From Desulfobacteraceae bacterium (GTDB taxonomy: Bacteria; Desulfobacterota; Desulfobacteria; Desulfobacterales; ETH-SRB1), in the NCBI GenBank assembly GCA_030593145.1, contig JAUVHU010000006.1:1121-65120 (forward strand): a stretch of 64,000 nucleotides of DNA, read 5' to 3'. Below the pieces are notes generated by a model that had not been told where the DNA came from, searched no databases, and saw only the letters and a list, made by a program, of their open reading frames with translations. The position numbers and the translations under genes are program-made. Position 1 is the first letter of the stretch. The number at the start of each line of letters is the position of its first letter. Below are positions 43,226 through 48,328 of this stretch, piece after piece.

Positions 43226-43352
43226 TAGCTATGAAAGCATAAATTCACAAAGTTCTCTTGCTATTATTGGCGACAGAGGATATTTTAAAAATTGCTGCAA
43301 ATCGACTTTTTATGAATTTATCATTATTCTTTAGGGTAATTTGATTGCTTAT

Positions 43353-44714
43353 ATGAAATCACGAATATTTTTTATATGGCTCGGACTATTTGTCTTGCTT
43401 GTAATAAATCTGGCAGCTATTGCATCTCAGAATAAAAATGCCGGGTCTAAGTATTTGCCGGTCCTTGCTAAAATTCAGACAAGTCAGGCGCGTATACCAG
43501 AGGTCTTTCTTTCATTTGACGCTGAATATGGGATTGTTGTCGAAAAAAATACTCAGCAACTATTTCTATATGCTTATGATGGCACATTTAACGAAAGATT
43601 ACGCTTTAATTGTTCAACCGGCGAGGTTGCCGGAAATAAGTCCTGTTCCGGAGACAAGAAGACACCTGAAGGCACATATTTTTTTACAGGAAATTTTAAA
43701 AAAAAGGATCTTTCACCTATATATGGAACAAGGGCCTTTCCTATAGATTATCCTAATCTTTTTGATCGTATTGAAGGCCGCAAGGGGTATTCGATTTGGC
43801 TTCATGGAACCGATAAACCTATAAAACCGATGGATTCCAATGGCTGTATTGTTCTTGCAAACAACGATATTGACAGTTTGGCAAAATATATAGATTTAAA
43901 TAAAACCCCGATTATTATTGTGGACAGGCTTTCCTTTGTACCTGTAGATCACAATAAAAAAAATAAAGATTCCATATTTAAGTTAATTTCACAATGGGAA
44001 GATGCGCTTGAAAATGGTACTTATCATGAATATTTGAATTCTTACAGCGATGAATATGTTCCTGATATTTCGTGGTGGTCTGACTGGATCGGAATTAAAA
44101 AGAGTTTTCAGACCTCTAATCTGAAGTTGTCTGTTGAGTTGAAAAGGAATTCAGTTTTCAGGCACAACGGAATTTATATGGTTTTGTTTGACCGGTTTGT
44201 CAGTTGTTCAGGCATTAATTTATTGGTTGGACGCAAAAAGCTTTATGTCTCAGATAAGGAAGGCCAATTCAAAATAGTTGGCGAGGAGTATCAGTCTGTT
44301 TCGAAAAGTTATAGTAGTTTAAAACAAAAACATCCACTTGTTGTTGCAAGCTGCGACCTGAAAAAAAGGTTTGAAGATAAAGATAAAATCGAAAACCTGA
44401 TTGATGGATGGCTGAAAGCCTGGTCTGATAGAGATATTACGCGTTATGGTAAATTTTATGCGAATAATTTCCGATCTCAGAACATGAATCTGAGGTCCTG
44501 GCTTAAATATAAAGAACAATTAAATCGGAAATACAATTTTATTAATGTTTCAAAAGATAAACTAACTATTAAAAAAAGCAAAAAGAGGGTTGAAGTTTCT
44601 TTTCTGCAAACTTATAAATCTAACACTTTTAAGGCAGTAGGCATAAAACGGCTGATCTTGATACGTGAAAAGGGATTATGGAAAATCTATCGGGAAACCT
44701 GGAAAAAGTTGTAA
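43353..44714 (+). CDS. YkuD-fold L,D-transpeptidase/carboxypeptidase with two NTF2-like C-terminal domains (Csd6/Pgp2-like architecture)
   Basis: Signal anchor; catalytic GYSIWLHGTDKP..DSNGCIVLANNDI (His/Cys of the YkuD fold). Two NTF2-like modules follow (ISQWEDALENGTYHEYLNSYS.. and IDGWLKAWSDRDITRYGKFYA..). Confidence 0.65.
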   Translation: MKSRIFFIWLGLFVLLVINLAAIASQNKNAGSKYLPVLAKIQTSQARIPEVFLSFDAEYGIVVEKNTQQLFLYAYDGTFNERLRFNCSTGEVAGNKSCSGDKKTPEGTYFFTGNFKKKDLSPIYGTRAFPIDYPNLFDRIEGRKGYSIWLHGTDKPIKPMDSNGCIVLANNDIDSLAKYIDLNKTPIIIVDRLSFVPVDHNKKNKDSIFKLISQWEDALENGTYHEYLNSYSDEYVPDISWWSDWIGIKKSFQTSNLKLSVELKRNSVFRHNGIYMVLFDRFVSCSGINLLVGRKKLYVSDKEGQFKIVGEEYQSVSKSYSSLKQKHPLVVASCDLKKRFEDKDKIENLIDGWLKAWSDRDITRYGKFYANNFRSQNMNLRSWLKYKEQLNRKYNFINVSKDKLTIKKSKKRVEVSFLQTYKSNTFKAVGIKRLILIREKGLWKIYRETWKKL

Positions 44715-45577
44715 AATCGCTGTCTTTGCCAAAACAATTAAAAAGGTCTGACTCATGGATTCTTTTGGCAATAGGAGATCATGGGAAGACGATATCGTTT
44801 GGAAAGCTTAAGGGACTGGTGCTTGCATTGGCACTGGCAGTGGTTATTGTTGTTGTTTTAGTTTCATACTCATTAATTGTTTCAAAAAGCTTAAGTAAAG
44901 AAAATGATGGATTGCGGAATGCTCTGGATGCATCAAAAAAGCAGATTGCGGCTTTGCGTGATGAGAGGGACATTTTCATGGTTCGTTCTGTTCTGGATAA
45001 AACCGGAGTCAAAGATAGCCTTGTTAGTATTGAGGAAAAGCAAACAGGTGAGACTCCCGTCGGTTTGCCCGACAAGAAAGCATCTGTTGAAACCAGTCCC
45101 GAACAGGCAGGTGTTGATAAAACAGTTTTATTAGCCAGCGAGAAGCAGCCGGAAGAAAAAACAGCTTCAGCGAGACAGGCAACCCTGCCAGTGGCTTCAG
45201 TTGAAGATTTCGTGATTTTATTTGAACCTGCCGGCAATATATTGAAGGTGCAGTTTAAAATAATAAACACATCTTCCGATTCTCAGCCTGTTTCAGGACA
45301 CGCTTTTGTTATATTAAAGGATGATGATAATGATGATAGTAAATGGTTGATATTTCCCCGTGTTACTCTGGCTTCAGGAAAACCCTCGCCTTATAAAAGG
45401 GGACAGTATTTTTCTATTTATCGTTTTAAAATGGTAAAGTTCACGGCACAGACTGAAACAAACCCGAAACGGTTTAGTAACGCTTCTGTATTAGTATATA
45501 ATACAACAGGTGATTTGCTGCTGGAAAAAAGTTGTCCGGTAAAAATTACAGAGGTTGTTGAGGATACATTAGGGTAA
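44678..45577 (+). CDS. hypothetical membrane-anchored protein (TM helix, coiled coil, acidic linker, beta-rich C-domain)
   Basis: TM helix LVLALALAVVIVVVLVSYSLIV. It has operon context, but no family was recognised. Confidence 0.45.
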   Translation: MENLSGNLEKVVKSLSLPKQLKRSDSWILLAIGDHGKTISFGKLKGLVLALALAVVIVVVLVSYSLIVSKSLSKENDGLRNALDASKKQIAALRDERDIFMVRSVLDKTGVKDSLVSIEEKQTGETPVGLPDKKASVETSPEQAGVDKTVLLASEKQPEEKTASARQATLPVASVEDFVILFEPAGNILKVQFKIINTSSDSQPVSGHAFVILKDDDNDDSKWLIFPRVTLASGKPSPYKRGQYFSIYRFKMVKFTAQTETNPKRFSNASVLVYNTTGDLLLEKSCPVKITEVVEDTLG

Positions 45578-45592
45578 GAAAAGGATTTAATT

Positions 45593-47134
45593 TTGTTTTA
45601 TAGAAACAGGCAATCCATAATTTGTTTGGTGTGTAAAACCATAATTGTTGTTTTCTCGATTATGCTTGTTTTTCTCCTATCGGATGTTGTTTGGTCGGAT
45701 GTTGTTTGGGCGCAAAAAAAAGTACACACTGTTTTTTTTGAAGGCACCGACCATGAGCTTGATATATACAAAATATATGGCAAGATGCCTGGGAAAACAC
45801 TTCTTTTGATAGGCGGAATTCAGGGAGATGAGCCGGGAGGCTTTCTTTCAGCAGATCATTATGCAGATATCAGTTTGGCTAAAGGAAATCTTATTGTAGT
45901 CCCAAGAGCCAATTTTAAGTCTATTGTTTTGCGTCGGCGCAAGGTAAATGATGATATGAATCGAAAGTTTGGGTACGATCGCAAAAATAACTATGAAACC
46001 AAAATCGTTGAAATCTTAAAAGAATTGATTAATGAAAGTGATTGCCTGCTAAATCTGCACGATGGCTCAGGTTTTTATTCAGACAAATGGGAAGGGCGTG
46101 ATAGAAACCCGAACAGATACGGCCAGTCGATTATCTCAGATTGTGAAGTTTATATTGATCCTGAAACAGAAGATGTTGTCGAGCTTGGCGTTATGGCGAG
46201 ATGGGTAGCCGATGAAATCAATAAGAATATAAAAAATCCTCTTAACTATTTTCATTTTAACGATCACAAAACTACTGAAAAAAATTCCCTGCATAAGGAG
46301 CAGCGCAAATCGGCCACATATTATGCTTTATATACATGCGGCATACCGGCATTTGGTATTGAAACAAGCAAATCACTTTCCCTTGAGTTGAAAGTACGTC
46401 ATCATAACCTCGCAATAAATGCCTTTATGGAAAAATTTGATATTATTCCCGAGACACCCGGTCTTAACCTTGATAAACCTATGCTGGATTATCTCGTTAT
46501 ATCTATAAACAACTCTTTGCCGATTGTTGTTAAAAATCAGGAGACACTTCATATTAACTCCGGCGATAATATTATGATATCTCATGTTGAGGCAAACTAC
46601 AAACGAGGGCTTTCCGCTGATGTTATTGATTACGGAAGCATAAGGGATATGCGAAAGGAAATCAGGATAACGGGGCCGACAAGAATTGTTGCGCGGAAGG
46701 ATTTTTTTCCATGCGGAAGTGTTTATATAGTGCCTGGTAAAAGACGTCGAATAATGGCTAAAGGTATATCAGTTTCAAAGAAACCAACCTTAACGCCTTA
46801 TATACATTCTTTCAAAGCCAAAATTAACGGTAAAAAAATAATTTATAAGAACAATGATTGTGCCAAACTAATAAAGGGCGACACTTTTGAGCTTGTGGAT
46901 GTAATCGGCGGTCCTGGAGATCCTTCGGATATGATTGTAAACTTTAAAGGCTTTGTGGGTGATACGGGCAACAATACGGGGGAAGACAGGGGATATGCAA
47001 TTAATACTGCCAAAGATCTCTGGAAGAATTATTCGCTGGATAAAAAAGGATTAAAATATAAGGTAATAGTTACATATAATAACCAAAATGCAGGAGAATT
47101 GTTCATAGATCTTGAAGAACCTGTTTTGAAATAA
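45593..47134 (+). CDS. M14-like peptidoglycan carboxypeptidase, Csd4/Pgp1-like (M99-type)
   Basis: GGIQGDEPGG has a Q-x-x-E metal motif in place of H-x-x-E, as described for Csd4. There is a downstream LLNLHDGSG histidine, an N-terminal signal anchor and a large beta-rich C-terminal region. Confidence 0.55.
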   Translation: MFYRNRQSIICLVCKTIIVVFSIMLVFLLSDVVWSDVVWAQKKVHTVFFEGTDHELDIYKIYGKMPGKTLLLIGGIQGDEPGGFLSADHYADISLAKGNLIVVPRANFKSIVLRRRKVNDDMNRKFGYDRKNNYETKIVEILKELINESDCLLNLHDGSGFYSDKWEGRDRNPNRYGQSIISDCEVYIDPETEDVVELGVMARWVADEINKNIKNPLNYFHFNDHKTTEKNSLHKEQRKSATYYALYTCGIPAFGIETSKSLSLELKVRHHNLAINAFMEKFDIIPETPGLNLDKPMLDYLVISINNSLPIVVKNQETLHINSGDNIMISHVEANYKRGLSADVIDYGSIRDMRKEIRITGPTRIVARKDFFPCGSVYIVPGKRRRIMAKGISVSKKPTLTPYIHSFKAKINGKKIIYKNNDCAKLIKGDTFELVDVIGGPGDPSDMIVNFKGFVGDTGNNTGEDRGYAINTAKDLWKNYSLDKKGLKYKVIVTYNNQNAGELFIDLEEPVLK

Positions 47135-47135
47135 A

Positions 47136-47519
47136 TTGCTGAATTTTTACAGGAGATGTATTGTGTGGAATAAAACTGAAAATATTTCTATCATTGATAA
47201 AGGGTTGATTGTAGATGGCACGGTTTCCGCCAAAGGGAAATTAGTAATAAAAGGGACAGTGAAGGGAACGCTTGTCGGAGAAACGGTGATTGTTGCTAAA
47301 GAAGGGGTTATTTCCGCGGATACAAAGGTAACGAGTATTACCGTAGGAGGAACCTTTGACGGAGAATTAGAGGCTTCAAATGAGCTGATAATACTTTCCA
47401 CCGGAACTTGTACAGGTAAAATGATCTGTAAGAATCTTATTGTTGAATCCGGAGGGAAATTAAATGCCGGTGTGGCATGTACTAAGGTGCAAAACACAAA
47501 CCAAGATATAAAGAAGTAG
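47136..47519 (+). CDS. bactofilin (polymer-forming cytoskeletal protein, CcmA-like)
   Basis: Beta-helix repeats GTVSAKGKLVIKGTVKGTLVGETVIVAKEGVISADTKVTSITVGGTFDGELEASNELIILSTGTCTGKMICKNLIVESGGKLNAG. A more likely start is GTG 47163, after the aggaga RBS. Confidence 0.75.
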   Translation: MLNFYRRCIVWNKTENISIIDKGLIVDGTVSAKGKLVIKGTVKGTLVGETVIVAKEGVISADTKVTSITVGGTFDGELEASNELIILSTGTCTGKMICKNLIVESGGKLNAGVACTKVQNTNQDIKK

Positions 47520-47548: not shown

Positions 47549-48328
47549 CTATTCTTCCCATTTGAATTTTGCATATAGCGGAAAATGATCTGATAGATAT
47601 ATACCATAAATTTTATCATGAACTACCTTGCAATTCACTGAAATAATACTGCCGCGATATAGAATCCAGTCAATATGATCTCCATTTCTATTTCCTGAAA
47701 ATCCATGATGTGTTCCGGGGAAAGGCTCACTAAAGGTGTTTTTAAAATAAAGCTTATTTGTTGAATTTGATTTTTTGTTCTGCCCTGTTAGCATCTTATA
47801 ACATGGACAAGAAGTGGTCGCATTAAAGTCTCCCGTAAGAATTACAGGCAGTTCAGATGGAAGACGTGACAGCCGCTTCATAATCAGCTCCGCGCTTTTA
47901 ACTTGGATAGTAGGGTCGAAATCAAAGTGGGTATTAATATATATAAGCGAATGATCATTGCTTTCAAATATACCAATTGTGCATTGTCTTGGCCAGAGAC
48001 TTTTCCTGGAACGGCTGGGTATCATTGGAGTTGGGCTCAAGAAAAAGTGCTCACTATGGATGCATTTCCAGGTTTTTTTATAGAAAATAATATTGTTTTG
48101 CCAAAATAAAGGGGCGGGGTTTCTTTTCCCAATAAAGCTGTACCCGGTCAGGATGTTTTTTAGAAAATCTGTTTGAAAATCGTTTGCTTCCTGTAAGCCA
48201 ATGAAATCAGCAGGATATTTATCGAAAAGGTAGGGAAAGCATTTCTTTCGGTGATCCCAGTTATTGGAACCGTCGTCTGCCAGGCCAAAGCGAAGATTGA
48301 GTGTTATAACTGAAAGCATGTTATTCAT
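47549..48328 (-). CDS. endonuclease/exonuclease/phosphatase (EEP) family protein
   Basis: VITLNLRFG..IGLQEA..TGDFN..SDHFPL are EEP catalytic motifs. Confidence 0.75.
   Translation of the reverse strand: MNNMLSVITLNLRFGLADDGSNNWDHRKKCFPYLFDKYPADFIGLQEANDFQTDFLKNILTGYSFIGKRNPAPLFWQNNIIFYKKTWKCIHSEHFFLSPTPMIPSRSRKSLWPRQCTIGIFESNDHSLIYINTHFDFDPTIQVKSAELIMKRLSRLPSELPVILTGDFNATTSCPCYKMLTGQNKKSNSTNKLYFKNTFSEPFPGTHHGFSGNRNGDHIDWILYRGSIISVNCKVVHDKIYGIYLSDHFPLYAKFKWEE

What the first reader, a model, noticed from the sequence alone, without database searches (positions are those of the whole stretch)
43353..47519. A single operon combines Csd6-like, Csd4-like and bactofilin genes, resembling a compact cell-shape (peptidoglycan-trimming) module
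Four co-directional, tightly packed genes encode:
1. A YkuD-fold enzyme with a His/Cys motif (HGTDKP..SNGCIV) followed by NTF2-like domains. This is the architecture described for the Helicobacter L,D-carboxypeptidase Csd6 and Campylobacter Pgp2.
2. A membrane-anchored coiled-coil protein of unknown family.
3. An M14-like carboxypeptidase whose metal motif is Q-x-x-E (GGIQGDEPGG) rather than H-x-x-E, the unusual feature reported for Csd4/Pgp1.
4. A bactofilin, as CcmA is.

In Helicobacter and Campylobacter these functions act sequentially (tetrapeptide to tripeptide to dipeptide) and, with CcmA, generate helical shape. To my knowledge their genes are scattered there.

Finding them fused into one operon with an unknown membrane partner in a different lineage suggests a self-contained curvature or helicity module.
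Basis: partly seen in the sequence, partly recalled or inferred. Interest (0 to 1): 0.6.

Follow-up and report, generated by a model that had tools for sequence, protein, structure and literature searches.

The report
Bactofilin-linked cell-wall peptide-trimming operon
Four tightly packed genes in an uncultured sulfate-reducing bacterium encode two cell-wall peptide-trimming enzymes of the kinds that curve Bdellovibrio and Helicobacter, a cytoskeletal bactofilin, and an unstudied membrane-spanning protein that probably ties the cytoskeleton to the enzymes; I found no published description of this widely conserved set.

Summary
Window 43341-47519 (+) holds four co-directional genes:
- ORF1: a YkuD enzyme with two NTF2 domains. 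Its closest solved relative is Bdellovibrio Bd1075, ahead of Csd6/Pgp2.
- ORF2: a bitopic protein with no known family.
- ORF3: a Peptidase_M99 enzyme (Csd4/Pgp1 family) with the Q-x-x-E...H metal site intact.
- ORF4: the genome's only bactofilin.

Catalytic and targeting residues are conserved in both enzymes. The genome is a Desulfobacteraceae MAG of the Eth-SRB1 genus.

The gene order is conserved across Desulfobacterales and many other families of the phylum, but its content is nested. In 41 relatives, every M99 carrier has ORF2 and every ORF2 carrier has a bactofilin, usually within 3 kb. The enzymes are often missing. One genome splits the set into a scaffold pair and an enzyme pair.

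ORF2 has the layout described for the bactofilin clients LmdC and Csd5: a conserved cytoplasmic hairpin, a TM helix and a periplasmic coiled coil. Its head is a non-catalytic Ig-like domain.

Best reading: a bactofilin-positioned stem-peptide trimming module with ORF2 as adaptor. "Helical shape" specifically is not supported. Cultured filamentous and rod-shaped relatives carry reduced versions. Papers searched hold no description. I class it as a new variant of a known kind.

The parts
43341..44714 (+). ORF1, 457 aa. Secreted or membrane-anchored YkuD-fold LD-carboxypeptidase with two tandem NTF2-like (Cds6_C) domains, of the Bd1075/Csd6/Pgp2 type.
   Evidence: Pfam YkuD at residues 63-193 and Cds6_C twice. 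PDB 7o21 (Bd1075) E=5.9e-41, Csd6 4xzz 8.1e-16, Pgp2 6xj6 2.8e-15. H155/G156/C169 match Bd1075 H141/A142/C156. V171 matches V158. Y425 and W454 match the NTF2 targeting residues Y274 and W303. The N-terminal hydrophobic segment with AIA-SQ suggests export (read from the sequence).
44678..44714 (+). 37-nt dual-coding overlap of the ORF1 end and the ORF2 start (translational coupling).
   Evidence: Overlap in the window, and an identical 37-nt overlap in 14 of 15 related loci.
44678..45577 (+). ORF2, 299 aa. Bitopic protein of an unnamed family: conserved cytoplasmic hairpin motif (res ~24-45), TM plus long helix (45-108), disordered linker (109-168), Ig-like beta-sandwich (170-295). Proposed bactofilin-to-periplasm adaptor.
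   Evidence: No Pfam, NCBIfam or PDB sequence match. AF2 model, C-domain pLDDT 84-91. Foldseek gives only generic Ig/FnIII-like sandwiches. The family has 1127 representatives at 50% identity, all unnamed. The motif RRW-TLLFVGDHGKVIS-x-KRFKG has W and G invariant. Adjacent to a bactofilin in 26 of 28 named loci.
45593..47134 (+). ORF3, 513 aa. Exported Peptidase_M99 (Csd4/Pgp1-family) DL-carboxypeptidase of a divergent, cluster-linked subfamily: catalytic domain plus two beta domains.
   Evidence: Pfam PF17033 129 bits. Csd4 4q6m E=3.7e-27. Q77/E80/H156 match Csd4 Q46/E49/H128. R116, N123, R124 and E257 match R86, N93, R94 and E222. Foldseek top five hits are all Csd4, E~1e-19 over ~470 columns, next fold 5e-6. 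The model is only moderate (pLDDT 62).
47136..47519 (+). ORF4, bactofilin. 127 aa from the TTG start. More likely 118 aa from GTG 47163, preceded by AGGAGA at 47151-47156. The only bactofilin in the genome.
   Evidence: Pfam PF04519 65.9 bits. PDB 6ria E=0.0026. Single genomic copy. Start inferred from the RBS and homolog N-termini MWNKSDNISIID.

Best explanation
The four genes form one morphogenetic module that confines trimming of peptidoglycan stem peptides to places marked by a bactofilin polymer.

Proposed mechanism:
- The bactofilin (ORF4) polymerises on the cytoplasmic face of the inner membrane.
- ORF2 spans the membrane. Its conserved N-terminal beta-hairpin docks on the bactofilin, in the way shown for LmdC and for the short tail of Csd5.
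- ORF2's coiled-coil stalk, flexible linker and Ig-like head reach into the periplasm. There they hold or orient the two exported enzymes.
- ORF1 removes the terminal D-Ala (tetrapeptide to tripeptide). ORF3 then removes meso-DAP (tripeptide to dipeptide).
- This depletes cross-linkable stems locally and so biases wall growth, giving curvature or another local shape feature.

Shown here: the identities of the four proteins, intact catalytic and targeting residues, the ORF2 architecture, conserved order and translational coupling, and nested co-occurrence (M99 within ORF2 within bactofilin).

Inferred: enzyme activities, all protein-protein contacts, localisation and the shape outcome.
For: Enzyme identity and intact active sites.

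ORF1 keeps Bd1075's NTF2 residues Y274 and W303, which target that enzyme to one cell face.

ORF2 has the layout published for LmdC (cytoplasmic beta-hairpin that binds BacA, TM, periplasmic coiled coil) and Csd5 (short cytoplasmic tail binding CcmA, TM, periplasmic wall-binding domain). A family member with a LysM domain, and others with duplicated heads, fit a periplasmic, wall-facing C-terminus.

Linkage:
- The order ORF1-ORF2-ORF3(-ORF4) recurs in Desulfobacterales.
- It also recurs in 15 of the 22 M99 loci re-fetched with long flanks from the 251-genome phylum sample.
- The 37-nt ORF1/ORF2 overlap is conserved.

Phyletic nesting in 41 relatives:
- 19 of 19 M99 carriers have ORF2.
- 28 of 28 ORF2 carriers have a bactofilin.
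- 8 genomes of one genus lack all of them.

Genome G003 splits the set into ORF2+bactofilin and ORF1+ORF3.

All nine genomes with only the trio encode one bactofilin elsewhere. The three M99-only genomes, with no ORF2, encode none.

Membrane-bound clients can substitute for a bactofilin's own membrane anchor (PMC12448750).
Against: - No interaction, activity or localisation has been measured.
- The ORF2 hairpin is modelled at low confidence (pLDDT about 45-51).
- Homology of the hairpin to LmdC was not tested, because no LmdC sequence was at hand.
- Comparison with hairpin-TM mini-proteins next to other bactofilins was not significant (hhalign E=0.016, probability 3%).
- In nine of 22 phylum loci the trio has no adjacent bactofilin, so ORF2 may serve the enzymes without it.
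- Four loci have ORF1-ORF3 with no ORF2, so the enzymes can do without the adaptor.
- Cultured carriers of reduced versions are filamentous or rod-shaped (morphology from my own knowledge).
- The co-occurrence counts are not phylogenetically independent.
- Co-transcription is unverified.
Confidence: 0.6

Rival explanations
1. General wall-maturation operon without spatial control. ORF1 and ORF3 trim stem peptides over the whole sacculus to set cross-linking or recycling levels. ORF2 and the bactofilin are merely co-regulated neighbours with separate roles.
For: The enzymes occur without ORF2 (4 loci) and without an adjacent bactofilin (9 loci). ORF2+bactofilin occur without the enzymes. The cluster sits among housekeeping genes (cpoB, ruvCAB, rplM).
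Against: Strict gene order, with ORF2 wedged between the enzymes. The conserved 37-nt ORF1/ORF2 overlap. M99 of this subfamily is never seen without ORF2 in the 41 relatives. ORF1 keeps the residues that localise Bd1075. Canonical stand-alone M99 genes form a different subfamily.
Confidence: 0.15
2. ORF2 is a periplasmic regulator or stabiliser of the carboxypeptidases, as Csd7 stabilises Csd1/Csd2, and not a bactofilin adaptor. The bactofilin link is indirect.
For: ORF2 lies between the two enzyme genes and is translationally coupled to ORF1. The trio persists without an adjacent bactofilin in many families. ORF2's head is a protein-binding-type Ig-like domain.
Against: When the enzymes are lost, ORF2 stays with the bactofilin (6 of 41 relatives; Desulfonema-type loci). 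In G003, ORF2 goes with the bactofilin and not with the enzymes. The most conserved part of ORF2 is cytoplasmic, which a purely periplasmic regulator would not need.
Confidence: 0.13
3. The module serves division or pole remodelling rather than lateral-wall curvature. A bactofilin patch at the septum or pole would recruit trimming enzymes, perhaps together with Tol-Pal/CpoB.
For: Conserved position directly downstream of pal-cpoB-ruvCAB. Bactofilins mark poles, stalk bases and bud necks in other bacteria (PMC10945521 and PMC12448750). Presence in non-curved cultured species.
Against: The synteny with cpoB/ruv is broken in Desulfonema magnum and in other families while the module persists. The closest characterised enzymes all act in curvature or helicity.
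Confidence: 0.08
4. ORF1 is an LD-transpeptidase or a lipoprotein-detaching amidase rather than a carboxypeptidase, so the pathway is not tetra to tri to di.
For: The YkuD fold is shared by all three activities. NCBIfam gives a weak sub-threshold match to DpaA/YafK (33 bits against a cut-off of 365). The Bd1075 authors stress that activity must be verified biochemically.
Against: The best relatives by far are three proven LD-carboxypeptidases with the same YkuD+NTF2 layout. The residue two after the catalytic Cys is Val as in Bd1075, not the Arg of transpeptidases. The downstream partner M99 needs tripeptide substrate (PMC3961634 title and abstract).
Confidence: 0.07

Closest known systems
Bdellovibrio bacteriovorus Bd1075 (PDB 7O21), with H. 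pylori Csd6 (4XZZ) and C. jejuni Pgp2 (6XJ6): LD-carboxypeptidases that shape cells
   Same: YkuD catalytic domain followed by an NTF2-like domain. The His/Gly-or-Ala/Cys triad. Val two residues after the Cys, as in Bd1075. The extended NTF2 C-terminus with the pocket Tyr and Trp that target Bd1075 to the convex face.
   Different: ORF1 has two tandem NTF2 domains. It lacks the N-terminal dimerisation domain of Csd6/Pgp2, since the alignments start at Csd6 residue 80. Its gene is translationally coupled to an adaptor-like gene and linked to M99 and bactofilin genes. No such linkage is mentioned in the Bd1075 paper (no occurrence of 'operon').
H. pylori Csd4 / C. jejuni Pgp1 (Peptidase_M99, DL-carboxypeptidase)
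   Same: The Q-x-x-E...H metal site, Arg86/Arg94/Asn93 equivalents and the Glu222 base. The overall three-domain order, with Csd4 as the unique top fold match.
   Different: A divergent subfamily: about 105-150 Pfam bits against 265-312 for canonical members in the same phylum. Csd4 His126 is Asn and Trp148 is Tyr. The protein is longer (513 aa), and some relatives add a further ~100-aa domain. It is almost always clustered with ORF1 and ORF2, while canonical M99 genes stand alone.
LmdC-BacA module (Hyphomonas neptunium, Rhodospirillum rubrum; PMC10945521)
   Same: A bactofilin gene next to a gene for a bitopic protein with a short cytoplasmic beta-hairpin, a TM helix and a periplasmic coiled coil. 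The cytoskeleton positions a wall hydrolase to change curvature.
   Different: ORF2 has no M23 domain. Its head is a non-catalytic Ig-like sandwich. The hydrolases are separate proteins and are carboxypeptidases, not endopeptidases. Sequence homology of the hairpins was not established.
H. pylori shape complex: CcmA with Csd5 and Csd7
   Same: A bactofilin connected to the periplasm through a single-pass protein (Csd5) with a short cytoplasmic tail and a periplasmic wall-facing domain. Trimming by Csd6 and Csd4 belongs to the same shape programme.
   Different: Csd5 ends in an SH3b domain, ORF2 in an Ig-like domain preceded by a long coiled coil. The H. pylori genes are dispersed, with ccmA beside csd1/csd2 and csd5 beside aroE. 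No direct link between CcmA and Csd4/Csd6 is reported in the papers read.

Membership tests
Csd6/Pgp2/Bd1075-type LD-carboxypeptidase | YkuD catalytic domain with the His-(Gly/Ala)-Cys triad | tested here: met
   Pfam YkuD 71.9 bits. H155/G156/C169 align to Bd1075 H141/A142/C156. Gly is the usual residue in LD-CPases.
Csd6/Pgp2/Bd1075-type LD-carboxypeptidase | C-terminal NTF2-like (Cds6_C) domain | tested here: met
   PF24125 82.9 bits with two stretches. Both copies are seen in the genome searches.
Csd6/Pgp2/Bd1075-type LD-carboxypeptidase | Bd1075 subtype: extended NTF2 C-terminus with the pocket Trp (W303) and Tyr (Y274) | tested here: met
   W454 and Y425 align to W303 and Y274.
Csd6/Pgp2/Bd1075-type LD-carboxypeptidase | Csd6/Pgp2 subtype: N-terminal dimerisation domain | tested here: not met
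   Only about 60 residues (signal or anchor) precede the YkuD domain. Alignments begin at Csd6 residue 80. Bd1075 also lacks this domain.
Csd6/Pgp2/Bd1075-type LD-carboxypeptidase | Converts tetrapeptide stems to tripeptides | not testable with these tools
   Needs a muropeptide assay.
Peptidase_M99 (Csd4/Pgp1) | Profile match above the curated cut-off | tested here: met
   PF17033 129.1 bits against a cut-off of 27.
Peptidase_M99 (Csd4/Pgp1) | Q-x-x-E...H metal motif, plus Arg86, Arg94 and the Glu222 general base | tested here: met
   Q77, E80, H156, R116, R124 and E257. All are invariant in 14 homologs.
Peptidase_M99 (Csd4/Pgp1) | Three-domain architecture (CPase, beta-barrel, Ig-like) | tested here: inconclusive
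   Foldseek aligns about 470 columns to Csd4 at E~1e-19, but TM-scores are 0.31-0.40 and model pLDDT is 62. Pfam M99_C reaches only E=0.034, below the cut-off.
Peptidase_M99 (Csd4/Pgp1) | DL-carboxypeptidase activity on tripeptide stems | not testable with these tools
   Needs a biochemical assay.
Bactofilin | DUF583/bactofilin beta-helical core | tested here: met
   PF04519 65.9 bits against a cut-off of 27.9. Thermus bactofilin 6ria E=0.0026.
Bactofilin | N-terminal membrane-targeting motif (consensus MFSKKKK; F2 and K4/K7 are key) | tested here: inconclusive
   The likely N-terminus MWNKTEN keeps a hydrophobic residue at position 2 and Lys at position 4, but has Glu6 and Asn7. The paper notes that most Thermodesulfobacteriota bactofilins carry a different motif.
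LmdC-type bactofilin client | Short cytoplasmic region with a conserved beta-hairpin, then TM and a periplasmic coiled coil | tested here: inconclusive
   AF2 gives strands 30-32 and 38-40 before helix 45-108, but the hairpin pLDDT is about 45-51. The motif is highly conserved. No LmdC sequence was available for comparison. hhalign against hairpin mini-proteins gave E=0.016.
LmdC-type bactofilin client | C-terminal M23 (LytM) endopeptidase domain | tested here: not met
   No Pfam or NCBIfam M23 match. The C-domain is an Ig/FnIII-like sandwich. ORF2 is therefore not filed as an LmdC family member.
Csd5 | C-terminal SH3b peptidoglycan-binding domain | tested here: not met
   No SH3 match by Pfam and none among the 50 Foldseek matches listed, E down to 2e-3.

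The most novel reading that the evidence does not exclude
ORF2 founds a large, unnamed family of bactofilin-to-periplasm adaptors (over 1100 clusters at 50% identity). In this reading, ORF2 keeps an LmdC-like docking hairpin but has exchanged the catalytic head for an Ig-like head that recruits separate enzymes. The ORF2-bactofilin pair would be a general scaffold into which peptidoglycan carboxypeptidases (Bd1075-type, then M99-type) are plugged or lost. That would explain the nested gene content and offer a first molecular answer to how a Bd1075-like enzyme is placed on one side of a cell.
Probability: 0.35. Interest if true: 0.75.

Novelty: new variant of a known kind. Interest (0 to 1): 0.6.

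Why it matters
Bactofilin-guided wall hydrolysis is so far known for M23 endopeptidases (LmdC, Csd1). Stem-peptide trimming by Csd6/Pgp2/Bd1075 and Csd4/Pgp1 is known to bend cells, but how trimming is confined in space is open. The Bd1075 authors state that no mechanism is known for targeting a protein to one lateral wall.

Here the trimming enzymes, a bactofilin and a candidate transmembrane adaptor are wired together genetically in a large, environmentally important phylum. That yields a directly testable model and names a new protein family to test.

The module also gives a candidate shape system for sulfate reducers, including partners of alkane-oxidising archaea, whose morphogenesis is essentially unstudied.

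Tried and rejected
- **ORF2 by sequence.** No Pfam, NCBIfam or PDB match. PADLOC had no match for any of the four proteins, so a defence role is not indicated.
- **ORF2 by fold.** Only generic beta-sandwiches, with no specific functional relative.
- **Informative fusions among long ORF2 relatives.** They turned out to be duplications of the C-domain plus one LysM insertion. None was fused to a bactofilin or an enzyme.
- **The hairpin+TM module on other architectures, such as M23 fusions, across 251 phylum genomes.** Beyond the order, nearly all hits were TM-only noise. One was a true divergent cluster, L063.
- **LmdC-like M23 genes next to other bactofilins (33 loci).** None was found. Those bactofilins sit beside what read, by eye, as parAB or mrdA-rodA/atp genes. 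The genome's own two M23 peptidases lack the hairpin layout.
- **Profile-profile comparison of ORF2 with two hairpin-TM mini-proteins found beside bactofilins.** The alignment was in register but not significant.
- **The apparent M99-bactofilin fusion in L026.** I rejected it as evidence. There is no TM segment between the parts and there is an internal RBS-like site, so it is probably a restart or an assembly issue.
- **The gene between ruvB and ORF1 in relatives.** It looks like a SAM-hydrolase-like (DUF62-type) gene, judged by eye and not by a family search. It is absent from the window and I treat it as unrelated to the module.

Full report
**Observation**

The window carries four co-directional ORFs at 43341-44714, 44678-45577, 45593-47134 and 47136-47519. 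They lie downstream of pal-side cpoB (TIGR02795) and ruvC-ruvA-ruvB. They lie upstream of a convergent endonuclease/exonuclease/phosphatase gene and rplM-rpsI.

ORF1 and ORF2 overlap by 37 nt. ORF2 and ORF3 are 15 nt apart. ORF4 most likely starts at GTG 47163, six bases after an AGGAGA site. That gives MWNKTENISIID, which matches the homolog N-termini. No + strand terminator-like site lies inside the cluster.

**The enzymes**

ORF1 matches Pfam YkuD and, twice, the Cds6_C NTF2 domain. Among solved structures its best relative is 7o21 (E=5.9e-41), far ahead of Csd6 (8.1e-16) and Pgp2 (2.8e-15). 7O21 is Bd1075, the LD-carboxypeptidase that makes Bdellovibrio vibrioid. Bd1075 is targeted to the convex face by its NTF2 domain (PMC8938487).

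Mapping the alignment gives these equivalences:
- H155/G156/C169 match H141/A142/C156. Gly is the usual third residue.
- V171 matches the unusual V158, where transpeptidases have Arg.
- Y425 and W454 match Y274 and W303, the pocket residues needed for Bd1075 targeting. The authors thought W303 was Bdellovibrio-specific.

ORF1 differs in having a second NTF2 domain and no Csd6/Pgp2-type N-terminal domain.

ORF3 scores 129 bits on Peptidase_M99 and E=3.7e-27 against Csd4. Q77/E80/H156 correspond to the Csd4 ligands Gln46/Glu49/His128. R116, N123, R124 and E257 correspond to Arg86, Asn93, Arg94 and the base Glu222. All are invariant in 14 homologs.

An AlphaFold model of moderate quality (pLDDT 62) finds Csd4 entries as its top five fold matches. 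They have E about 1e-19 over about 470 columns, against 5e-6 for the next fold. Both enzymes begin with hydrophobic export-type segments, as read from the sequence.

**The bactofilin**

ORF4 is a bactofilin (65.9 bits) and the only one in this genome.

**ORF2**

ORF2 has no Pfam, NCBIfam or PDB sequence match. Its relatives are all 'hypothetical protein' from Desulfobacterales or Thermodesulfobacteriota MAGs. A profile search still finds 1127 representative clusters, 468 of them below 1e-30.

The model shows:
- two short strands at residues 30-40 (low confidence)
- one long helix at 45-108 that contains the TM segment and a coiled coil
- a disordered linker
- a confident beta-sandwich at 170-295 (pLDDT 84-91)

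The sandwich resembles only generic Ig/FnIII-like domains. The most conserved stretch is cytoplasmic. It is a basic run followed by W-T-L-L-F-V-G-D-H-G-K-V-I-S-x-K-R-F-K-G, just before the TM segment. W and G are invariant in 116 sequences. Longer relatives duplicate the head, and one inserts a LysM domain, which fits a periplasmic head.

This is the layout published for LmdC: a cytoplasmic beta-hairpin that binds BacA, a TM helix, a periplasmic coiled coil and then an M23 domain (PMC10945521). It is also broadly the layout of Csd5. ORF2 lacks the M23 and SH3 domains, so it is not a member of either family.

**Taxon and conservation**

The nearest named genome is 'Desulfobacteraceae bacterium Eth-SRB1', with 92% identity for ORF2.

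In 28 named loci the frame cpoB-ruvCAB-[cluster]-EEP-rplM-rpsI is conserved but the content varies:
- The full set occurs in about 16 loci.
- ORF1-ORF2-bactofilin without M99 occurs in three, including Desulfonema magnum and Desulfatirhabdium butyrativorans.
- ORF2-bactofilin alone occurs in five.
- ORF2 alone occurs in two.

In 41 relatives the genomes sort as follows:

| Content | Genomes |
|---|---|
| All four genes | 17 |
| ORF2, M99 and bactofilin, without a clustered ORF1 | 2 |
| ORF1, ORF2 and bactofilin | 3 |
| ORF2 and bactofilin only | 6 |
| A bactofilin only | 4 |
| None | 9 (8 in one genus) |

So M99 implies ORF2 (19 of 19) and ORF2 implies a bactofilin (28 of 28), almost always within 3 kb.

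Genome G003 keeps ORF1-ORF3 on one contig and ORF2-bactofilin on another, beside what looks by eye like a PBP1A-type gene.

**Across the phylum**

In an even sample of 251 genomes, M99 occurs in 52 and falls into two classes. Canonical members score 265-312 bits and stand alone. Window-type members score 105-150 bits.

With long flanks, 22 window-type loci give these counts:
- six four-gene sets
- nine ORF1-ORF2-ORF3 trios
- four ORF1-ORF3 pairs
- three lone M99 genes, all in one genus

All nine trio genomes encode one bactofilin elsewhere. The three lone-M99 genomes encode none. Those unlinked bactofilins are of a higher-scoring type. They lie beside what I read, by eye and without a family search, as parAB or mrdA-rodA/atp genes.

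**Interpretation**

The data fit a scaffold pair (bactofilin plus ORF2) to which a Bd1075-type and then an M99-type carboxypeptidase are attached. This would give spatially confined tetra-to-tri-to-di trimming.

The direct ORF2-bactofilin contact, the recruitment of the enzymes and the shape outcome are all inferences. The hairpin's relation to LmdC is unproven. The only profile comparison I could run, against two hairpin-TM mini-proteins that precede bactofilins in another family, was in register but not significant.

'Helical shape' is not supported as such. Curvature, width or local remodelling are all possible.

**Prior knowledge**

Full-text searches combining bactofilin, Csd4/Csd6, Pgp1/Pgp2, Bd1075, YkuD, M99, Desulfovibrio and Thermodesulfobacteriota found no paper describing this linkage.

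Earlier notes of this scan report the same cluster in other Desulfobacterota genomes, with similar readings. I treated them as leads. My own searches reproduce the conservation.

Noticed in passing
L014:3501-4301, L015:3240-4040, L028:3867-4673 and others; absent at window 43226-43340: Most relatives carry a roughly 266-aa gene between ruvB and ORF1. By eye it looks like a SAM-hydrolase/chlorinase-like (DUF62-type) gene; I ran no family search on it. The window genome lacks it and has only a 115-nt spacer there.
   Followed up: partly
L026:7053-9239 (Olavius algarvensis Delta 4 endosymbiont MAG): The M99 frame runs without a stop through an extra domain into the bactofilin. There is no TM segment in between, and an RBS-like AAGGAAGAG lies before an internal GTG. 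It could be a real fusion, a read-through or an assembly error.
   Followed up: partly
L022:6899-8743, L025:6783-8609, L027:3442-5337, L040:6964-8859: Some M99 homologs carry an additional conserved C-terminal domain of about 100 aa (LKY.VF...GAL.C..PG...D...L.DI.TN...G..AF) that is absent from the window protein.
   Followed up: no
P0076, P0088, P0179, P0198 (427-542 aa); P0167 (399 aa): Long ORF2-family members have two tandem copies of the C-terminal beta-sandwich. One member has a LysM domain between the coiled coil and the head.
   Followed up: partly
L128:3055-3360 and L130:3141-3452: In two genomes of another family, a mini-protein of about 100 aa sits directly upstream of the canonical bactofilin. 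It consists only of a beta-hairpin-like motif (RVTFLVI..TGRQIRFS), a TM segment and a coiled coil.
   Followed up: partly
L126, L127, L131, L132, L140-L154 (second bactofilins of relatives); L124, L125, L133, L134: A second, higher-scoring bactofilin type is conserved between rodA (after mrdA) and the atpF genes in many Desulfobacterota. In other families it follows parA-parB. Neighbour identities were read by eye, without a family search. The window genome lacks this second bactofilin.
   Followed up: partly
G004:C25:9581-10045; G006, G008, G010, G014, G016, G020, G022, G024: The M99 gene of G004 is interrupted by an in-frame TAA. Eight of twelve genomes of one genus lack M99, ORF2, the Cds6-type enzyme and any bactofilin, so the module is dispensable and is lost as a unit.
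   Followed up: partly
window 47051-47080 (+): A 10-of-12 sigma-70-like promoter match lies inside the 3' end of ORF3, about 80 nt upstream of the bactofilin start. It is a consensus match only. It could allow separate bactofilin expression.
   Followed up: no
window 47549-48328 (-): A convergent endonuclease/exonuclease/phosphatase-family gene follows the bactofilin after 29 nt. It is syntenic with the cluster in most Desulfobacterales loci. Any functional tie is unknown.
   Followed up: no
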